Origin: a virus | Lineage: Duplodnaviria; Caudoviricetes | Reading direction: 5' to 3' (one strand) | DNA: 64,000 bases | Virus record (IMG/VR): IMGVR_UViG_3300031853_000001 | Location: 116,933 to 180,932 of that record | Shown here: positions 1,045 through 24,779 of the stretch, piece by piece | Position numbering within the stretch: position 1 is the stretch's first letter | How the letters are laid out: the number at the start of each line of letters is the position of its first letter | Program-made: the position numbers and the translations under genes | Notes under the pieces: model-generated | Databases searched by the model: none | Told to the model about the DNA's origin: nothing | Seen by the model: only the letters and a program-made list of their open reading frames with translations

Positions 1045-1708
1045 ACTGGAATTTGTTGTCCAGAGTAGGCATAAATCGAGCAGCAATGCGGTAATACCCG
1101 TGCACAGGTAGCTAAATTACCCTGGCTCACCAATTATTTTAGAAGATAAGACTTGAGCTTATCTCTGGCTATGAAGCGAGTGCCGTGCCGCAGATGCGGT
1201 GCTTAGTGGAGCCTATGTGGGTTTAGCGTGTCAACCACAATGCGGATAGGTATTAACCGAAAGAAAACACGCTTTAATGGCGCTTTATCCCAAGCCTTTT
1301 CGCGGCGGCGCTATAAGTACCAAAAGGTATTATTTAATACTGAGCGTGAAACTAAGAGGGAACTGAAGGCTGTGCCAAGGTGAAAGGCTAACAGTCCGAG
1401 TGATGACCGTTGAAGCCATTCGGTGCATAGTGGTGCCGTTAAAGCGATGGATGCATACATCGTCCACTTCATTTAATGACTTGATGCTTATCAAGCTAGA
1501 ACTATCGAGGACGTGTGCGGTGGGAATGTTTGAGATTAGATGTAGATAGTTTAAGTATAGACTTGCGGTGCAAGCCTAATCAACTGGCGTTCCGCGGCCA
1601 GAATACTTTGCGGGCTTTATTGATTCGGGAGGAAGTGTCCGTAGATGAACTTCTCGGAGTAATCGCCATAATCGAATCAGCCGTGCGGCTGGCATAATGC
1701 CGCAATAT

Positions 1709-1828
1709 GGCACCGTAGTGCAAAGGTAAGCACGCCGGCCTTTGTGAGATAGGGTAAAGTGCAGTTCAACTCTGCCGTCTCGCACCACAAGCCGGTGATG
1801 CTGGGTTCAAGTCCCGCCGGTGCTTCCA
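1709..1828 (+). tRNA. tRNA-Glu(TTC) interrupted by a 44-nt tRNA-like insert (1744-1787)
   Basis: GGCACCG/CGGTGCT acceptor + T-CCA; CCGGC/GCCGG anticodon stem; removing 1744-1787 gives loop CT-TTC-AA. Confidence 0.85.
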
Positions 1829-1924: not shown

Positions 1925-2566
1925 ATGAGTAGAAAATTAAGCCAACAACAATTTGAAGAAAGAGTATATAAGACATTTGGAGATAAATATTCTGTAGTAA
2001 GTGAATATTTAGGTCAAAGAAAACCTATAACTTTACATTGTAATATACACAATATTGATTTTACAGCTACTGCTGAATGTTTCATGAGACAAGCTAATGA
2101 CACTCGCTCAAGTTGTCCAGAATGTACTGCAGAAAAACGAAGACAAGAAAATAATTCTGTAAAATGTGAATGTGCTTATTGTCATAAAATTTTTTATTTG
2201 TCTCAATCTAAAGCTAATAATTCTAAAAGTGGATTACATTTTTGTTGTAGAGAACATAAAGATTTAGCTCAAAGAATAGATAGCGGTGAACAATTCGATA
2301 TAATGCGCCCGCCTCATTATAATGCAATAAAAAATGATACAGGAACAATTGGGACATATCGTATTTTAGCTTTTAGAAATTATCCCCATAAGTGCGCTGT
2401 TTGTAATTGGGACGAAGATGAAGATATATTACAAGTTCATCATATAGATGAAAATAGACAAAATAATTCTTTAACCAATTTAATTATTTTATGTCCTAAT
2501 TGTCACGCAAAAATAACTTATGGGAAATATAAATTAATTGATCGAAAACAAATTATATTAAAATAA
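1925..2566 (+). CDS. HNH endonuclease
   Basis: CAVC...VHHIDENRQNN...LCPNCH. Confidence 0.85.
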   Translation: MSRKLSQQQFEERVYKTFGDKYSVVSEYLGQRKPITLHCNIHNIDFTATAECFMRQANDTRSSCPECTAEKRRQENNSVKCECAYCHKIFYLSQSKANNSKSGLHFCCREHKDLAQRIDSGEQFDIMRPPHYNAIKNDTGTIGTYRILAFRNYPHKCAVCNWDEDEDILQVHHIDENRQNNSLTNLIILCPNCHAKITYGKYKLIDRKQIILK

Positions 2567-4222: not shown

Positions 4223-4993
4223 GTGGTTAATATGCCACTAAAATATAAATTAGAAGAAGTATTAACAGAAAATTCTCCTGTTACTAGAAAAGTTTTAAAA
4301 GATTATTTAGCAAAATATAATGTTTTAGAATATAAATGTGCAATATGCGATAACAGAGGAGAATGGAATGGAGTTTCTTTAACATTACAAATAGACCATA
4401 TTAATGGTATAAGAGATGATAATAGAAAAGAAAATCTTCGTTGGCTATGCCCGAATTGTCATTCTCAAACTGATACTTTTACTGGGAAAAATAAAACTAA
4501 AAAAGAAGTTGTTAATTTTACAGTAGAAGAAGCTATTAAAGCATTACAACAAACTGAAAATGTAAATCAAGCAACCAAATTAATCGGCTGTGCGCAAGGT
4601 GGAGCAAATTGGATTAGAGTAAATGATATTAAAAAAAAGTATGGAATTATTCAATCTGGGGATTTAAAGAAAGAAGAAAAACAAAAGTTTAAAGAAAATC
4701 ATATTAATGCGAAACCAATTAACTCTATTAAATTATGTAAAAAATGCGGCCGTCCGTTATCGACAAAAGATGCTGAATACTGTCAAACTTGTATACACGA
4801 ATTTCAACGAAAATGTGAATGGCCTTCTCGCGAAGAACTTAAAAAATTAATTCGCTCTACACCTTTTTTACAAATAGGTAAAAAATATAATGTAAGCGAT
4901 AATGCTGTAAGAAAATGGTGCTTAAATTATGGTTTGCCATCTAAAAAGATGGAAATAAAAGCAATTTCAGATGAAGATTGGAATAATATTTGA
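4223..4993 (+). CDS. HNH endonuclease
   Basis: CAIC...LQIDHING...NLRWLCPNCHSQT. Confidence 0.9.
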   Translation: MVNMPLKYKLEEVLTENSPVTRKVLKDYLAKYNVLEYKCAICDNRGEWNGVSLTLQIDHINGIRDDNRKENLRWLCPNCHSQTDTFTGKNKTKKEVVNFTVEEAIKALQQTENVNQATKLIGCAQGGANWIRVNDIKKKYGIIQSGDLKKEEKQKFKENHINAKPINSIKLCKKCGRPLSTKDAEYCQTCIHEFQRKCEWPSREELKKLIRSTPFLQIGKKYNVSDNAVRKWCLNYGLPSKKMEIKAISDEDWNNI

Positions 4994-5294: not shown

Positions 5295-5365
5295 ACGACG
5301 GTAGCAGCAGTTTTAATAATAAATATTTTTAATGTAAAAATCCTTATTAGCAAAAATTCCGTCGT
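5295..5365 (+). ncRNA. stem-CAGCA cassette 1 (skipping-rope-like)
   Basis: ACGACGG/CCGTCGT closing stem, GCAGCAG, internal AT-rich hairpin. Confidence 0.5.
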
Positions 5366-6171: not shown

Positions 6172-6194
6172 AAGAAAGGAAGTAGATACTCCAT

Positions 6195-6748
6195 TTAATA
6201 AAATGGTTGAACCAAGTGAAGAAGAGTTAACCACTCTGCTTGGGCTATCTAAATAACAGCCATACGATTTAGCGGGATACTACTAAATCGCGGCCACGAA
6301 ATCAGTAATGATTAGTGATAAGGAGAAACTCTTAATGTTAAGGATAGGCGCTTGGTTATTCGCTAACAAAAACTTGGCTCCTTGCGGCGTCGTAATAGAA
6401 AGCAGATTGAGCAGATTTGCCGAACCCAGAAAAGACTTTAAGGTGGCAGTTAAAGGGACTCTGGGAAAGCCATAAGACGTTTGGTGTCGTTGAAACCTAG
6501 AAATAGGATATAAGCAAGGTTCACAGATAAAGTAGCCTAAAACGACAATGATTCTAATAAGTAATTTAATTAGAATAATGTGCTGAATGGTTTAGGTGAA
6601 ATTTGGGAGTAATCAGTCTCCCCGTTGCTAGCCAAAAGGCAGGATGAAGAAGTTAAAGGGTCGCTACCTTTGGCTCAGCCTTCATCTTCAACGTGGTTGA
6701 ATATGTTAGAAGGATAATACAAGTACGGCGAAGGTCGCAACGGTTTTA
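6195..6748 (+). ncRNA. large structured RNA, ROOL-like
   Basis: ~550 nt ORF-free and helix-rich; the 3' part (AAAAGGCAGGATGAAG..GGGTCGCTACC..CTCAGCCTTCATC..GTGGTTGAATA..GGCGAAGGTC) resembles ROOL 3' domains as recalled; tRNA-island context. Confidence 0.5.
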
Positions 6749-6768
6749 TTAAATGGGGTATTTGCCCT

Positions 6769-7771: not shown

Positions 7772-8311
7772 ATGAGTGACGTAAGACTAAAAATTTTACC
7801 TCCATGGACAGTAACAATTCGTAAGTTTGAGGCACTATTTGACGGTGACCCACAAATTGCTTGTAATTGTAATTTCTCAGGTTCTAATCCTTCTATTGTA
7901 CTAGCTTGTAATAATGGTGATAAGGTTGCTGCTCTACAGCAGATTCTTCCTTCTGAAGTTGGCTTTGGCAATATTAAGCTAAAGGTCGCGGTTGATGGTG
8001 TTCCTTCTAATCGTACTTTCAAGAGTAAGGTTGAACTATTTGACACGGCTTTCAAGGGGAATCCAGCATACGCTTATTCTGCATGTCCTGCTGAGGAAGG
8101 TTATCAGTGGATTGGGACTACTTATGTTGTATTTAATAACTGTGTAGTGCAGTTCGCGGCGGACAATCTAAATGATTGCCATGGTATTATTAGCACCCTA
8201 TATGAAACTATCGCAAGCGAACTTCTAACTGGCCCCGCTACTGATGGTGTATTTTATAATACAAATGTAGAACGTGCTGGGCTTGGTCTTTCGCTAGGAG
8301 AATGGCCATAA
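7772..8311 (+). CDS. hypothetical protein
   Basis: 179 aa, RBS GAGGAG, phage-like codon usage. Confidence 0.75.
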   Translation: MSDVRLKILPPWTVTIRKFEALFDGDPQIACNCNFSGSNPSIVLACNNGDKVAALQQILPSEVGFGNIKLKVAVDGVPSNRTFKSKVELFDTAFKGNPAYAYSACPAEEGYQWIGTTYVVFNNCVVQFAADNLNDCHGIISTLYETIASELLTGPATDGVFYNTNVERAGLGLSLGEWP

Positions 8312-8532
8312 AAGATAAGTTCACTGGGCTCTTCTAAAGTCCAGTACCAAAGCCGAATGTCACATAAAGTTAACGACGGTGCGGTATGAAAAGACCACGC
8401 TGTAGTGGCACGGGCAGAGCTAATCCGGCAAGGAAAGCGGCGGTTAAAGTGAAATCGCGACGCGGAAAGAGAAAGAATAACAACCAGTGATGGGTCGAAA
8501 GACGTCTTATCAGTTTTCTCGGTCACTTTTAT

Positions 8533-8606
8533 AGTCCGTTAGTTTAACAGTAAAATATAACCCTGTCACGGTTAAGTTACGAGGGCAGCACTCGTACGGA
8601 CTGCCA
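8533..8606 (+). tRNA. tRNA-Asp(GTC) with atypical T loop GGCAGCA
   Basis: AGTCCGT/ACGGACT-G-CCA; TAACC-CTGTCAC-GGTTA. Confidence 0.85.
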
Positions 8607-8724
8607 TAGACTCAAACAGCAATATTTTACTTGCATGTGGGGCCGGAAGTATTGGTTTAACTCCAGTTCTCTCCACCACATGGAGAGATAGTGTAACGAT
8701 AGCACGCCGTATAGTATGAGTCTA
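8607..8724 (+). ncRNA. stem-ACAGCAA cassette 3 containing a circularly permuted tRNA (GTG/His-like anticodon)
   Basis: TAGACTCA/TGAGTCTA; the 3' half (T arm, TCTCTCC-A-CCA) precedes the 5' half (GGAGAGA-TA-D arm). Confidence 0.7.
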
Positions 8725-8730
8725 GTATAT

Positions 8731-9283
8731 CGGGTTGTAGCGCAGTTTGGTAGCGCGCCTCGCTTGGGAAAAGCGATTTGTGCTTAATTATTATGTTAGA
8801 CATTACTCAACAAAAAGGAACGATTACAGAATTACGATGTATTTTAGATTTAACTAATTTGGGAATACGATGTTTAGTTCCTGTAGATGAAAGTTCTAAA
8901 TATGATGTAGTAGCAGATTTAAATGGTACTTTTATTAGAATTCAATGTAAAACAGCTTGTTGGGCTAAAGATACCGTTCAAGAAAAAGTAGCCTTTGAAA
9001 TAGATACTTGTCGAAGTACAACAAATACTAAAACTACTACTCATTATAAGTATTCTGCTAATGAAATTGATTATTTTTATACATGGTTTGAAGGACAAGG
9101 TTACTTAGTCTCCATTAAAGAAGCAAAAGGTTTAACTTTTAGATGGCGATATGAATATCCTTCTACCAATCAAAAACAAGGTATTCATATCGCAGAATTA
9201 TATAAGACTGAGGAGGTTTTAAAAGCACTCTAAAATTTTCCTGGACGAGGAGGCCGCAGGTTCAAATCCTGCCTGCCCGACCA
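8731..9283 (+). tRNA. tRNA-Pro(TGG) split by a 476-nt endonuclease-bearing insert (8767-9242)
   Basis: 5' half CGGGTTG..CCTCG-CTTG; 3' half GGA-CGAGG..GCAGG-TTCAAAT-CCTGC-CTGCCCG-A-CCA. Confidence 0.85.
8778..9233 (+). CDS. PD-(D/E)XK homing endonuclease (I-Ssp6803I-like) inside tRNA-Pro; likely start ATG 8793
   Basis: KG.ITE...KYDVVAD...IRIQCKT motif. Confidence 0.8.
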   Translation: MCLIIMLDITQQKGTITELRCILDLTNLGIRCLVPVDESSKYDVVADLNGTFIRIQCKTACWAKDTVQEKVAFEIDTCRSTTNTKTTTHYKYSANEIDYFYTWFEGQGYLVSIKEAKGLTFRWRYEYPSTNQKQGIHIAELYKTEEVLKAL

Positions 9284-9626: not shown

Positions 9627-9718
9627 TAAGCCTTTACTGCAATTACTTAAATGGTTAAATTATTTTGCTTGAATACAAAATGAGAGAAGGTTCGAGCCCT
9701 TCACAATTAAAAGGCTTA
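9627..9718 (+). ncRNA. stem-ACTGCAA cassette 4 with an acceptor-less tRNA body
   Basis: TAAGCCTTT/AAAGGCTTA; D-loop-like AAATGGTTAAA; ATTTTG-CTTGAATA-CAAAAT; GAAGG-TTCGAGC-CCTTC. Confidence 0.6.
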
Positions 9719-9734: not shown

Positions 9735-9800
9735 AAGGCACAAGCAGCAACAAGACGTTTTAATAATTTGATAGTGGATTAAATTTATTGAGTGTGCCTT
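9735..9800 (+). ncRNA. stem-GCAGCAA cassette 5 with a GTG anticodon-like arm
   Basis: AAGGCACA/TGTGCCTT; TTTGA-TAGTGGA-TTAAA. Confidence 0.55.
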
Positions 9801-10354: not shown

Positions 10355-10357
10355 TTT

Positions 10358-10476
10358 TATGCGGTCACAGCAATTTTAGATTTAATCTAAGTGTCATCGG
10401 TTCGATTCCGATTATTCCAGCCATTTAATTTGGAGTGTAGCTCAATTGGTAGAGCATTAGAATTATAAACCGCATA
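10358..10476 (+). ncRNA. stem-ACAGCAA cassette 6 containing a circularly permuted tRNA (TTT or TAT anticodon)
   Basis: TATGCGGT/ACCGCATA; 3' half 10381-10423 (ATCGG-TTCGATT-CCGAT, TATTCCA-G-CCA), then 5' half 10431-10461 (TGGAGTG-TA-GCTC-AATTGGTA-GAGC-A-TTAGA). Confidence 0.75.
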
Positions 10477-10489
10477 GTACGATATTTAA

Positions 10490-10554
10490 GACGCTTACAG
10501 CAATTTAATACAGTCGCACACATAAATAATTACATGACTAAGTAATAGAGCGTC
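10490..10554 (+). ncRNA. stem-ACAGCAA cassette 7
   Basis: GACGCT/AGCGTC; TACAGCAA. Confidence 0.55.
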
Positions 10555-24566: not shown

Positions 24567-24779
24567 ATGAAATATAAATTAGCAATTGATTATGAATATA
24601 TACGAGATGTGCAAGAAGAATATGATGAATTAATTGAAGATGGTTATTTACCTGATGAAGCAAAACGACAAATTGAATCTAATTTAAAAGAATTAGCTTA
24701 TAAAATTAGTGGCCGTGCAGATAATACTTTTTGGGGCGGATACACCGAAGTTATTAATGTGGAGGAAATTGATGAATGA
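24567..24779 (+). CDS. hypothetical protein
   Basis: Coupled ORF. Confidence 0.6.
   Translation: MKYKLAIDYEYIRDVQEEYDELIEDGYLPDEAKRQIESNLKELAYKISGRADNTFWGGYTEVINVEEIDE

What the first reader, a model, noticed from the sequence alone, without database searches (positions are those of the whole stretch)
8607..8724. Second permuted tRNA whose anticodon segment pairs with its own CCA linker
The order is again 3' half (GTG-GG-GCCGG, T arm, TCTCTCC-A-CCA), linker CAT, then 5' half (GGAGAGA, D arm, CCG). The acceptor stem is a perfect 7 bp but the anticodon stem has only 3 bp. CATGTGG (8634-8640) is exactly complementary to CCACATG (8676-8682), giving an alternative fold that hides both the anticodon and CCA. 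It may be a switchable precursor or a decoy.
Basis: partly seen in the sequence, partly recalled or inferred. Interest (0 to 1): 0.75.

Follow-up and report, generated by a model that had tools for sequence, protein, structure and literature searches.

The report
Phage Y-RNA-like permuted tRNA mimic
This 118-base phage RNA gene folds like a tRNA with a capped acceptor end and a conserved 'handle' where the anticodon loop should be, and it belongs to a large family not found in Rfam or the searched literature that sits next to a Ro60-shaped phage protein, so it is most likely a Y-RNA-type tRNA mimic rather than a switch or a working tRNA.

Summary
Window 8607-8724 (+) has the order T arm, acceptor 3' strand, A-CCA, CAT, acceptor 5' strand, D arm. 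An 8-bp stem closes the whole element.

The element is real. Seven orthologues in related phages keep it between tRNA-Asp and tRNA-Pro, and the acceptor stem shows compensatory changes. A covariance model finds more than 60 full-length relatives in which 93.5% of the modelled pair positions form standard pairs.

The proposed alternative fold is not supported. It has about 2% ensemble probability, costs 3.8 kcal/mol, and is lost in five of seven orthologues.

There is no usable anticodon arm. In its place is a conserved handle: the closing stem followed by ACAGCAA. Other RNAs in the same tRNA island carry the same handle.

The handle RNAs lie on the same strand as a DUF2828+vWA gene and nearly always upstream of it. 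The predicted fold of that protein matches Ro60. This linkage recurs in distant phages, including FelixO1 and an Enterococcus phage.

Best reading: an undescribed Y-RNA-like tRNA mimic with the topology of YrlA. Its CCA-CAT loop copies an inter-tRNA junction, so RNase P probably cuts it into two pieces. Protein binding and cleavage are inferred, not shown.

This scan found the same family earlier on other DNA.

The parts
8533..8606 (+). Upstream neighbour: tRNA-Asp(GUC)-like gene (8533-8603) plus its encoded CCA (8604-8606). The element starts at the next base.
   Evidence: Rfam tRNA 45.8 bits. ARAGORN calls tRNA-Asp directly before the element in orthologous loci.
8607..8614 (+). Closing stem, 5' strand (handle)
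   Evidence: Perfect 8-bp complement of 8717-8724. In the family alignment all 8 pairs covary and 98% of pair positions are paired.
8616..8622 (+). Conserved handle motif ACAGCAA. Its last four bases (8619-8622) form the 5' strand of the small hairpin listed next.
   Evidence: CAGCAA follows the closing stem in nearly all family members. Regex scan: 640 stem+motif hits on the + strand against 95 on the - strand.
8619..8634 (+). Small hairpin (4 bp, 8-nt U-rich loop), in the position of the 'V' stem-loop of YrlA
   Evidence: Minimum-free-energy fold. 81.6% paired in the family (helix 2).
8636..8643 (+). 5' strand of the weak 'anticodon-stem' rod (4 bp, a G/G mismatch, 3 bp); pairs with 8706-8713
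   Evidence: Only 73-77% paired across the family (helices 3 and 4). One compensatory G-C to A-U change in L033.
8651..8667 (+). T arm (5-bp stem, 7-nt loop). The loop here reads UUUAACU; most relatives have the canonical UUCRAAU.
   Evidence: 100% paired in 60 distinct family members (helix 5).
8668..8688 (+). Capped acceptor arm: 3' strand 8668-8674, A73 at 8675, CCA at 8676-8678, linker CAU at 8679-8681, 5' strand 8682-8688. The inferred RNase P site is between 8681 and 8682.
   Evidence: Perfect 7 bp with pair probabilities 0.84-0.98. Compensatory changes at 2-71, 3-70 and 4-69 among orthologues. All 7 pairs covary in the family. The loop matches the CCA-TAT spacing between adjacent tRNA genes of this phage.
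8691..8705 (+). D arm (4-bp stem, 7-nt loop with a single G where relatives have GG)
   Evidence: 99.6% paired in the family (helix 7).
8706..8713 (+). 3' strand of the rod
8717..8724 (+). Closing stem, 3' strand (handle), followed by GUA. The family consensus ends GUCU(A/U)-GUU.
8634..8640 (+).
10357..10477 (+). Sister long-form family member in the window: a permuted tRNA-like body with a GCCA + 7-nt loop and the same handle
   Evidence: R1 43.8 bits. R2 87.5 bits.
9627..9718 (+). Handle RNA with an acceptor-less tRNA-like body
   Evidence: Stem + ACTGCAA motif. Rfam tRNA 20 bits at 9641-9709.
9735..9800 (+). Short-form handle RNA (no tRNA body)
5295..5365 (+). Short-form handle RNA
10490..10554 (+). 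Short-form handle RNA

Best explanation
The element is a non-decoding tRNA mimic built like a bacterial YrlA-type Y RNA. Its two ends pair into a closing stem that, together with the adjacent ACAGCAA, forms a conserved 'handle'. The handle carries a tRNA body made of a T arm, a 7-bp acceptor arm capped by a loop, and a D arm. The anticodon arm is replaced by the connection to the handle.

Shown:
- The fold, its conservation and its covariation.
- Membership in a large handle-RNA family with long (tRNA-like) and short forms.
- A fixed position inside a tRNA gene array.
- Genomic linkage of the family to a DUF2828+vWA gene whose predicted fold is that of Ro60.

Inferred:
- The RNA is released from the polycistronic tRNA transcript by the enzymes that mature the flanking tRNA-Asp and tRNA-Pro.
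- The handle binds the phage Ro60-like protein, as Y RNAs bind Ro60.
- Because the acceptor loop (A-CCA-CAU) copies the junction between two adjacent tRNA genes of this phage, RNase P cuts before G8682 and trimming stops at CCA. This would give a two-piece RNA with a free CCA end, as was shown for Mycobacterium smegmatis YrlA.
- The particle works with the neighbouring RNA-repair enzymes (a cREC phosphoesterase-like protein and an Rnl2-like ligase), or against host tRNA-directed defences, by presenting a tRNA look-alike.
For: - The minimum-free-energy fold is the permuted cloverleaf, z = -3.2.
- Seven orthologues lie between tRNA-Asp and tRNA-Pro, with compensatory changes in three acceptor pairs.
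- Model R1 finds 66 full-length matches at E <= 1e-4, all on the + strand.
- On that alignment 93.5% of pair positions are paired, against 35-43% when the partners are slid. Thirty-two of 33 pairs change on both sides.
- NCCA opens the acceptor loop in 18 of 60 distinct members, where about 1 in 64 is expected by chance.
- Twenty of 21 tRNA genes of this phage encode CCA, and adjacent genes are mostly spaced by TAT, as in the orthologues' loop.
- The DUF2828+DUF7788/vWA gene is followed by cREC_REC and RNA-ligase genes.
- The AlphaFold2 model of that protein (pLDDT 81.6) gives Ro60, Rsr or phage Ro60 as the 12 best Foldseek matches, full length, E down to 6e-9, TM 0.55.
- Model R2 finds the RNA near DUF2828 genes that are only 34-64% identical to this one. 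There were 62 hits, all on the gene's strand and nearly all upstream, and 17 more of the same kind in genome contigs.
- An Enterococcus phage has two copies within 600 nt upstream of the gene, Bacillus phage PK-3 has two copies, and FelixO1 has one.
- T5 and T4, which have tRNA arrays but no DUF2828, have no copy apart from one artefact.
- Published YrlA has the same order (5' motif, V, T, acceptor-like stem, D, 3' end). M. smegmatis YrlA, with a 7-bp stem, is cut by RNase P and carries CCA (PMC4201824).
Against: - No binding, expression or cleavage data exist.
- The handle motif ACAGCAA is not the GNCGAA(N)G or CGAA motif of known Y RNAs.
- Rfam YrlA (RF02553) does not reach its threshold anywhere in this genome and does not hit this element at all.
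- The RNAs also always sit in tRNA arrays, so the linkage could be to the array rather than to DUF2828. Only two arrays without DUF2828 were checked.
- KVP40 has DUF2828 but no detectable copy.
- In this genome the gene lies 9.8 kb upstream of the element, farther than the 4 kb used for YrlA.
- Most family members have no CCA and have loops as short as 3 nt, so cleavage cannot be general.
- This copy has a non-canonical T loop (U at position 56) and a single G in the D loop, so the tRNA elbow may be weakened.
Confidence: 0.6

Rival explanations
1. The RNA is a stand-alone decoy or sponge for tRNA-binding factors, such as host anticodon nucleases or other tRNA-directed defences, tRNA-processing enzymes or synthetases. 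On this reading the handle serves only stability or processing and does not bind the Ro60-like protein.
For: The tRNA body (T arm, 7-bp acceptor, D arm, NCCA) is strongly conserved. The element lies in a tRNA island with RNA-repair genes. The handle does not match the known Ro60-binding motifs. KVP40 has DUF2828 without a detectable copy.
Against: It lacks an anticodon loop, which is the target of anticodon nucleases. The handle sequence, not only its pairing, is conserved from Firmicutes phages to FelixO1, which suggests a dedicated protein partner. Short-form handle RNAs have no tRNA part. The RNAs lie close to DUF2828 genes and on their strand.
Confidence: 0.2
2. It is a true circularly permuted tRNA gene. 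The transcript ends would be cut and ligated by the phage RNA ligases into a circle, and RNase P plus 3' trimming would then open the CCA-CAU linker to give a working tRNA.
For: The gene order is 3' half, CCA, short linker, 5' half. The phage encodes an Rnl2-like ligase. Some other family members carry a complete anticodon hairpin next to the handle.
Against: This element has no 5-bp anticodon stem or 7-nt loop. Joining the ends would only cap an 8-bp stem on a 3+4-bp rod. No splicing endonuclease (PF01974) or RtcB is found in the genome. The handle sequence is conserved as if it belonged to the mature RNA. The rod pairs poorly, at 73-77%.
Confidence: 0.05
3. One reading: CAUGUGG (8634-8640) pairs with CCACAUG (8676-8682), hiding the CCA in an alternative fold that toggles the RNA between two states.
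For: Exact 7-nt complementarity. It is retained in the two closest orthologues, with a C-to-U change that still allows a G-U pair, and in L007 by alignment columns.
Against: The pair probability is about 0.02, and the forced fold is 3.8 kcal/mol worse because it breaks the acceptor arm. Only 4-5 of 7 positions can pair in five of seven orthologues. A 7-mer complement arises in 25% of shuffles. In L007 the segment is interrupted by an insertion.
Confidence: 0.04
4. It is a neutral relic of a tandem tRNA duplication: the 3' half of one copy joined to the 5' half of the next, with no function of its own.
For: The CCA-TAT loop looks like an inter-tRNA junction. A permuted model also hits a real tRNA-Leu/tRNA-Gly junction in T4 at 32 bits.
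Against: The acceptor strands pair perfectly and covary, which two different neighbouring tRNAs would not do. The closing stem and handle are conserved across phage families. Scores are 100-142 bits, far above the 32-bit junction artefact.
Confidence: 0.03

Closest known systems
YrlA-type bacterial and phage Y RNAs bound by Ro60/Rsr (Chen et al. 2014, PMC4201824; Rfam RF02553), in particular Mycobacterium smegmatis YrlA
   Same: The 5' and 3' ends pair, with a conserved motif just after the 5' strand. The order is then V hairpin, T arm, acceptor-like stem capped by a loop, D arm. There is no anticodon loop. The RNA is encoded on the same strand as a Ro60-fold gene, accompanied by shorter hairpin RNAs (YrlB-like), next to RNA-repair genes, and co-transcribed with tRNAs. 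M. smegmatis YrlA has a 7-bp acceptor-like stem, is cut by RNase P and ends in CCA.
   Different: The handle motif is ACAGCAA, not GNCGAA(N)G. The partner is a DUF2828-family protein that hit only DUF2828, DUF7788 and VWA_2 in Pfam, not TROVE, and has no sequence match to solved Ro60 structures. The Rfam YrlA model does not detect the element. CCA is already encoded in the loop here, whereas in M. smegmatis part of it is added. There are many paralogues per phage. Binding and cleavage are untested here.
Yrl1 and Yrl2 of Thermus phage phiLo with its Ro60 homologue (PMC12135203)
   Same: Phage-encoded Ro60-fold protein with small RNAs encoded upstream of its gene. Each RNA has a 5'-3' stem flanking a conserved motif.
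   Different: Those RNAs carry a CGAA motif in a bulge and were not described as tRNA-like. Their protein is a canonical TROVE Ro60 (PDB 9KOP, 9L5Y).
Circularly permuted tRNA genes of the red alga Cyanidioschyzon merolae and some green algae (from my own knowledge of Soma et al. 2007; mentioned in PMC3400036 and PMC4238349, papers listed but not opened)
   Same: The 3' half precedes the 5' half. The acceptor strands are joined by a short linker that includes CCA.
   Different: Those genes mature through a bulge-helix-bulge cut, circularisation and linker removal into complete decoding tRNAs. This element has no bulge-helix-bulge motif, no endonuclease gene and no anticodon arm.
Two-piece tmRNA from permuted ssrA genes (my own knowledge)
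   Same: The gene is permuted, so the acceptor stem is capped in the precursor and opened by processing. This gives a two-piece RNA with a tRNA-like domain and a CCA end.
   Different: There is no tag reading frame and there are no pseudoknots. This copy has no G3-U70 pair. ARAGORN finds no tmRNA.
Class I RNAs of Dictyostelium (PMC7919456; search pattern printed in PMC5054030)
   Same: A short covarying stem joins the two ends. It is followed directly by a conserved motif ending in ACAGCAA. A conserved short tail follows the 3' strand. The interior is variable and there are many paralogues.
   Different: They are eukaryotic, 42-65 nt long, have their own promoters and have no tRNA-like body. 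The reported binder is an RRM protein. Whether dictyostelids have a DUF2828 protein was not tested here.

Membership tests
YrlA / Y RNA (Rfam RF02553) | 5' and 3' ends pair into a closing stem | tested here: met
   8607-8614 pairs with 8717-8724, 8 of 8. The stem covaries in the family.
YrlA / Y RNA (Rfam RF02553) | Ro60-binding motif GNCGAA(N)G, or CGAA, near the 5' end | tested here: not met
   That position holds ACAGCAA. The motif definition comes from PMC4201824 and PMC12135203.
YrlA / Y RNA (Rfam RF02553) | tRNA-like domain in the order V, T arm, capped acceptor-like stem, D arm | tested here: met
YrlA / Y RNA (Rfam RF02553) | Conserved T-loop and D-loop residues that allow the tRNA elbow contacts | tested here: inconclusive
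   The family has UUCRAAU and GG. This copy and its two closest orthologues have U at position 56 and a single G in the D loop.
YrlA / Y RNA (Rfam RF02553) | Encoded near a Ro60 orthologue and on its strand (within about 4 kb) | tested here: inconclusive
   Same strand, but 9.8 kb from a gene that is Ro60-like by fold only. In other phages the distance is 0.05-1 kb.
YrlA / Y RNA (Rfam RF02553) | Scores above the Rfam gathering threshold | tested here: not met
   No hit on this element. The best hit in the genome is 30.4 bits against a 69-bit cut-off, on the sister element. No non-tRNA family matched.
YrlA / Y RNA (Rfam RF02553) | Bound by Ro60/Rsr in vivo | not testable with these tools
   Needs immunoprecipitation or a gel-shift assay.
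Circularly permuted tRNA gene | 3' half upstream of 5' half, joined by a short linker | tested here: met
Circularly permuted tRNA gene | Joining the ends gives a complete cloverleaf with a 5-bp anticodon stem and a 7-nt loop | tested here: not met
   Only 3 bp, a G/G mismatch and 4 weak pairs, which then run into the handle. The rod is 73-77% paired in the family.
Circularly permuted tRNA gene | Bulge-helix-bulge junction and a splicing endonuclease | tested here: not met
   There is no such motif at the ends. PF01974 is absent from the genome, although it is found in 4 archaeal control genomes.
Two-piece tmRNA | Tag reading frame, pseudoknots, G3-U70 | tested here: not met
   ARAGORN finds no tmRNA. 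The element is only 118 nt. Position 3-70 is A-U.
Dictyostelium Class I RNA | Short closing stem followed by an 11-nt motif ending in ACAGCAA | tested here: inconclusive
   The stem and the last 7 of 11 motif bases match the pattern printed in PMC5054030. Homology was not tested.

The most novel reading that the evidence does not exclude
The handle (closing stem plus ACAGCAA) is the docking site of a previously unrecognised branch of Ro60-like proteins (DUF2828). This copy is cut by RNase P in its CCA-CAU loop, so the particle displays a two-piece tRNA body that ends in CCA and may be chargeable. Such a body could serve as bait or guide for tRNA repair, or for countering tRNA-directed host defences. 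The same handle in Dictyostelium Class I RNAs would then mean that this RNP type extends from phages to eukaryotes.
Probability: 0.2. Interest if true: 0.85.

Novelty: new variant of a known kind. Interest (0 to 1): 0.65.

Why it matters
Y RNAs and Ro60 are known mainly from animals and a few bacteria, and the purpose of their tRNA-like module is an open question. This element belongs to a large, strongly covarying RNA family that is absent from Rfam and that I could not find described in the searched literature. The family occurs in cultivable phages (FelixO1, an Enterococcus Schiekvirus, Bacillus phage PK-3). It sits beside a Ro60-fold protein that databases list only as DUF2828 or 'RNA-binding protein'. 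That would give tractable systems for asking what a tRNA-mimicking Y RNA does. This copy is especially useful because its capped acceptor stem carries an encoded CCA in a loop that copies an inter-tRNA junction. The step seen in M. smegmatis YrlA, RNase P cleavage leaving a CCA end, could therefore be tested directly. The element also shows that ordinary tRNA-finding programs miss 'permuted tRNAs' of this kind in phage genomes (ARAGORN and Rfam's tRNA model both missed this one), and that such elements need not be tRNA genes.

Tried and rejected
- An exact-pattern scan of IMG/VR for the acceptor hairpin gave only two chance hits inside coding sequence.
- blastn of 8500-8800 against GenBank phages found nothing.
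- A script looking for 7-bp hairpins with NCCA in the loop found only this element in the genome. The sister elements have G-U pairs or mismatches, or longer loops.
- RNAalifold on the eight orthologues replaced the T arm with a G-U-rich hairpin. I rejected that structure because the T arm is canonical and 100% paired in the wider family, and I gave the model a hand-drawn structure instead.
- Rfam at E <= 10 gives nothing but tRNA hits around the element.
- A sequence search of the DUF2828 protein against the PDB was empty. Only the fold search showed the Ro60 likeness.
- A literature search for DUF2828 returned only plant and tardigrade papers. Two Y-RNA reviews are not held, and the supplements of Chen et al. 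are not held.
- The promoter and terminator scan was at chance level.
- The weak R2 hit in T4 is a tRNA-Leu/tRNA-Gly junction, not a family member.
- An attempt to find the tRNA-Pro exons in relatives by short blastn was uninformative. ARAGORN settled that question.

Full report
**What is in the sequence.** The window is the last 64 kb of a 180,932-bp IMG/VR virus record.
- a T arm at 8651-8667;
- an acceptor 3' strand at 8668-8674, then A and CCA;
- a 3-nt linker;
- the perfectly complementary acceptor 5' strand at 8682-8688;
- a D arm at 8691-8705;
- only three base pairs where an anticodon stem should be.

The 7-nt complementarity between 8634-8640 and 8676-8682 is exact. First, 8607-8614 pairs 8 of 8 with 8717-8724 and closes the whole element. 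Second, ACAGCAA follows the closing stem. The unconstrained minimum-free-energy fold is this permuted cloverleaf (-37.2 kcal/mol, z = -3.2). ARAGORN and Rfam do not call it.

**Is it more than chance?** Yes.
- nhmmer found orthologues in seven distinct related phage contigs.
- In their alignment the closing stem, T arm and D arm are kept, and the acceptor stem changes on both sides at pairs 2-71, 3-70 and 4-69.
- NCCA is kept in 7 of 8 copies.
- A covariance model built on my hand-drawn structure found 66 full-length matches at E <= 1e-4 in 0.9 Mb of related loci, all on the + strand.
- On that alignment 93.5% of pair positions form standard pairs, against 35-43% when the 3' partners are slid by 1-3 columns. 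Thirty-two of 33 pairs change on both sides.
- The closing stem, T arm, acceptor arm and D stem are 98-100% paired. The 'anticodon' rod is only 73-77% paired.
- The alignment was fitted to the model, which favours the structure. The slid control and the variety of pair types still make the helices convincing.

**The family.** Members share a handle. It is a closing stem with a conserved outer part and a covarying inner part, then (U/A)CAGCAA, and at the 3' side a short A/U-rich stretch, the stem and GUU. The interior is usually a small hairpin, a canonical T arm, a 7-bp acceptor hairpin with a 3-11-nt loop, and a canonical D arm.

In some members the small hairpin looks like a complete anticodon arm. 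In this element it does not. NCCA opens the acceptor loop in 18 of 60 distinct members, spread over several lineages.

A plain regex for 'stem, motif, complement' gives 640 hits on the + strand against 95 on the - strand of 2.29 Mb of phage loci. The lengths peak at 60-80 nt and at 100-120 nt, so there are short forms without a tRNA body and long forms with one.

In this genome the long form occurs three times: here, at window 10355-10479, and 11 kb before the window. Short forms lie at 5295, 9735 and 10490, and an acceptor-less form lies at 9627.

**Context and likely processing.** The element starts at the base after the encoded CCA of a tRNA-Asp-like gene. It ends 7 nt before tRNA-Pro. Relatives keep the same order. 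Twenty of the phage's 21 ARAGORN tRNAs encode CCA, and adjacent tRNA genes are mostly separated by TAT. The orthologues' acceptor loop reads NCCA-TAT (CAT here), so it copies an inter-tRNA junction.

From this I infer, but have not shown, three steps:
- tRNA-maturing enzymes release the element from the array transcript;
- RNase P cuts before G8682;
- trimming stops at CCA.

The arrangement also suggests that the element arose from a tandem tRNA duplication.

**The proposed switch.** The alternative helix has a pair probability of about 0.02. Forcing it gives -32.6 against -36.4 kcal/mol, because it breaks the acceptor arm. At least one 7-mer complement appears in 25% of shuffles. Its columns pair 7 of 7 only in the window and its two closest orthologues (one of these has an insertion inside the segment). 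They pair 4-5 of 7 in the other five. I reject the switch.

**The likely partner.** A 546-aa ORF lies 9.8 kb upstream on the same strand, in the middle of the tRNA island. It has DUF2828 and DUF7788/vWA domains. A cREC_REC protein and an Rnl2-like RNA ligase follow it.
- PHROGs calls it an RNA-binding protein.
- Sequence search against the PDB finds nothing.
- An AlphaFold2 model from 30 homologues has pLDDT 81.6.
- The 12 best Foldseek matches of that model are Ro60, Deinococcus Rsr and the Thermus-phage Ro60, aligned over the full length (E down to 6e-9, TM 0.55).

**Linkage between the RNA family and the gene.** I took loci around DUF2828 homologues that are 47-64% identical to this one. 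The family model found 62 matches there, all on the gene's strand and nearly all upstream, some within 60-500 nt. In genome contigs there were 17 more of the same kind, down to 34% protein identity.

In cultivated phages:
- Enterococcus phage vB_OCPT_Bill has two copies within 600 nt upstream of the gene;
- Bacillus phage PK-3 has two copies;
- FelixO1 has one copy 1 kb downstream;
- the Enterococcus phage and FelixO1 copies that I folded (the top-scoring Enterococcus one) adopt the same architecture on their own.

T5 and T4 have tRNA arrays but no DUF2828. They have no copy apart from a 32-bit hit on a tRNA-Leu/tRNA-Gly junction. KVP40 has the gene but no detectable copy. The linkage is strong, but it is confounded by the equally constant linkage to tRNA arrays.

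**Comparison with what is known.** The topology is that of YrlA, the tRNA-mimicking Y RNA of bacteria and some phages. YrlA has paired ends, a motif after the 5' strand, then V, T, a capped acceptor-like stem and D. M. smegmatis YrlA has a 7-bp stem, is cut by RNase P and ends in CCA. Shorter YrlB RNAs accompany it, and Deinococcus Y RNAs are co-transcribed with a tRNA (PMC4201824). Phage Ro60 proteins with Y-like RNAs are also known (PMC12135203; PMC7824862).

Membership in the YrlA family fails on three points:
- the motif differs;
- the Rfam model does not reach threshold;
- the protein belongs to a different sequence family.

So the element works like a YrlA but is not a member of that Rfam family.

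It is not a true permuted tRNA gene. It has no anticodon arm and no bulge-helix-bulge motif, and the genome has no splicing endonuclease or RtcB. It is not a tmRNA.

The handle resembles that of Dictyostelium Class I RNAs: a stem, a motif ending in ACAGCAA, and a short 3' tail (PMC5054030; PMC7919456). I checked the motif against the paper. I did not check whether dictyostelids have DUF2828.

**Verdict.**
- This is a real, conserved, non-decoding tRNA mimic on a conserved handle (confidence about 0.95).
- It is most likely the RNA partner of a Ro60-like DUF2828 protein (about 0.6).
- It is probably opened by RNase P into a two-piece, CCA-ended form (about 0.5).

The main rival is a decoy that acts without the Ro60-like protein.

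Earlier notes of this scan described the same family in this genome and reported it in at least 35 genomes, and follow-up agents reached the same reading on other genomes. The Ro60/DUF2828 lead came from those notes, and I re-tested it here. I found no paper describing the family.

**Limits.** There are no expression, binding or cleavage data. Covariation was counted on model-fitted alignments. Only three control phages were checked. E-values from the home-made models are rough.

Noticed in passing
window 8732-9282 (+): tRNA-Pro(UGG) is split in its anticodon loop by an insert of about 475 nt. The insert is almost filled by an ORF (8793-9233) of the PDDEXK_5 family (PF11645, E 2.6e-20). Relatives have an uninterrupted tRNA-Pro at the same place. 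No group I intron model matches, and the non-coding remainder seems too short for a group I core.
   Followed up: partly
window 1709-1828 (+): A tRNA (Rfam 44.8 bits) has a 47-nt insert in its anticodon loop. The insert folds as a 7-bp helix enclosing a T-arm-like hairpin and is followed by ACCA. It looks like a tRNA minihelix nested inside another tRNA.
   Followed up: partly
window 6188-6756 and 1166-1277 (+): A full-length ROOL RNA (315 bits) and a drum RNA (70.8 bits) lie in the same tRNA island.
   Followed up: no
window 8533-8603 (+): The tRNA-Asp(GUC)-like gene directly upstream has a non-canonical T loop with no UUC. ARAGORN misses it, although Rfam scores it at 45.8 bits.
   Followed up: no
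window 8380-8530: A relatively G+C-rich non-coding stretch lies between ORF 7772-8311 and the tRNA-Asp-like gene. It matches no Rfam family and may be another structured RNA.
   Followed up: no
window 1925-2566, 4223-4993; L089 9636-10274: Free-standing HNH and GIY-YIG endonuclease ORFs are interspersed among the tRNA and handle-RNA genes.
   Followed up: no
L172 9434-9561 and 9619-9744; L173 12417-12549: Cultivated phages carry unannotated family members. Enterococcus phage vB_OCPT_Bill has two copies just upstream of its DUF2828 gene. FelixO1 has one copy (record 24576-24708), which overlaps the annotated ORF94 on the opposite strand; that ORF may be spurious.
   Followed up: partly
NC_005083 (KVP40) 168943-169677: KVP40 encodes a DUF2828 protein but has no match to the handle-RNA model at E <= 1e-3. 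Its partner RNA may be divergent or absent.
   Followed up: no
A1 alignment, T loop and D loop columns: The window copy and its two closest orthologues have U at T-loop position 56 and a single G in the D loop. The other five orthologues have C56, and four of them have GG. Both partners of the elbow pair therefore changed together.
   Followed up: partly
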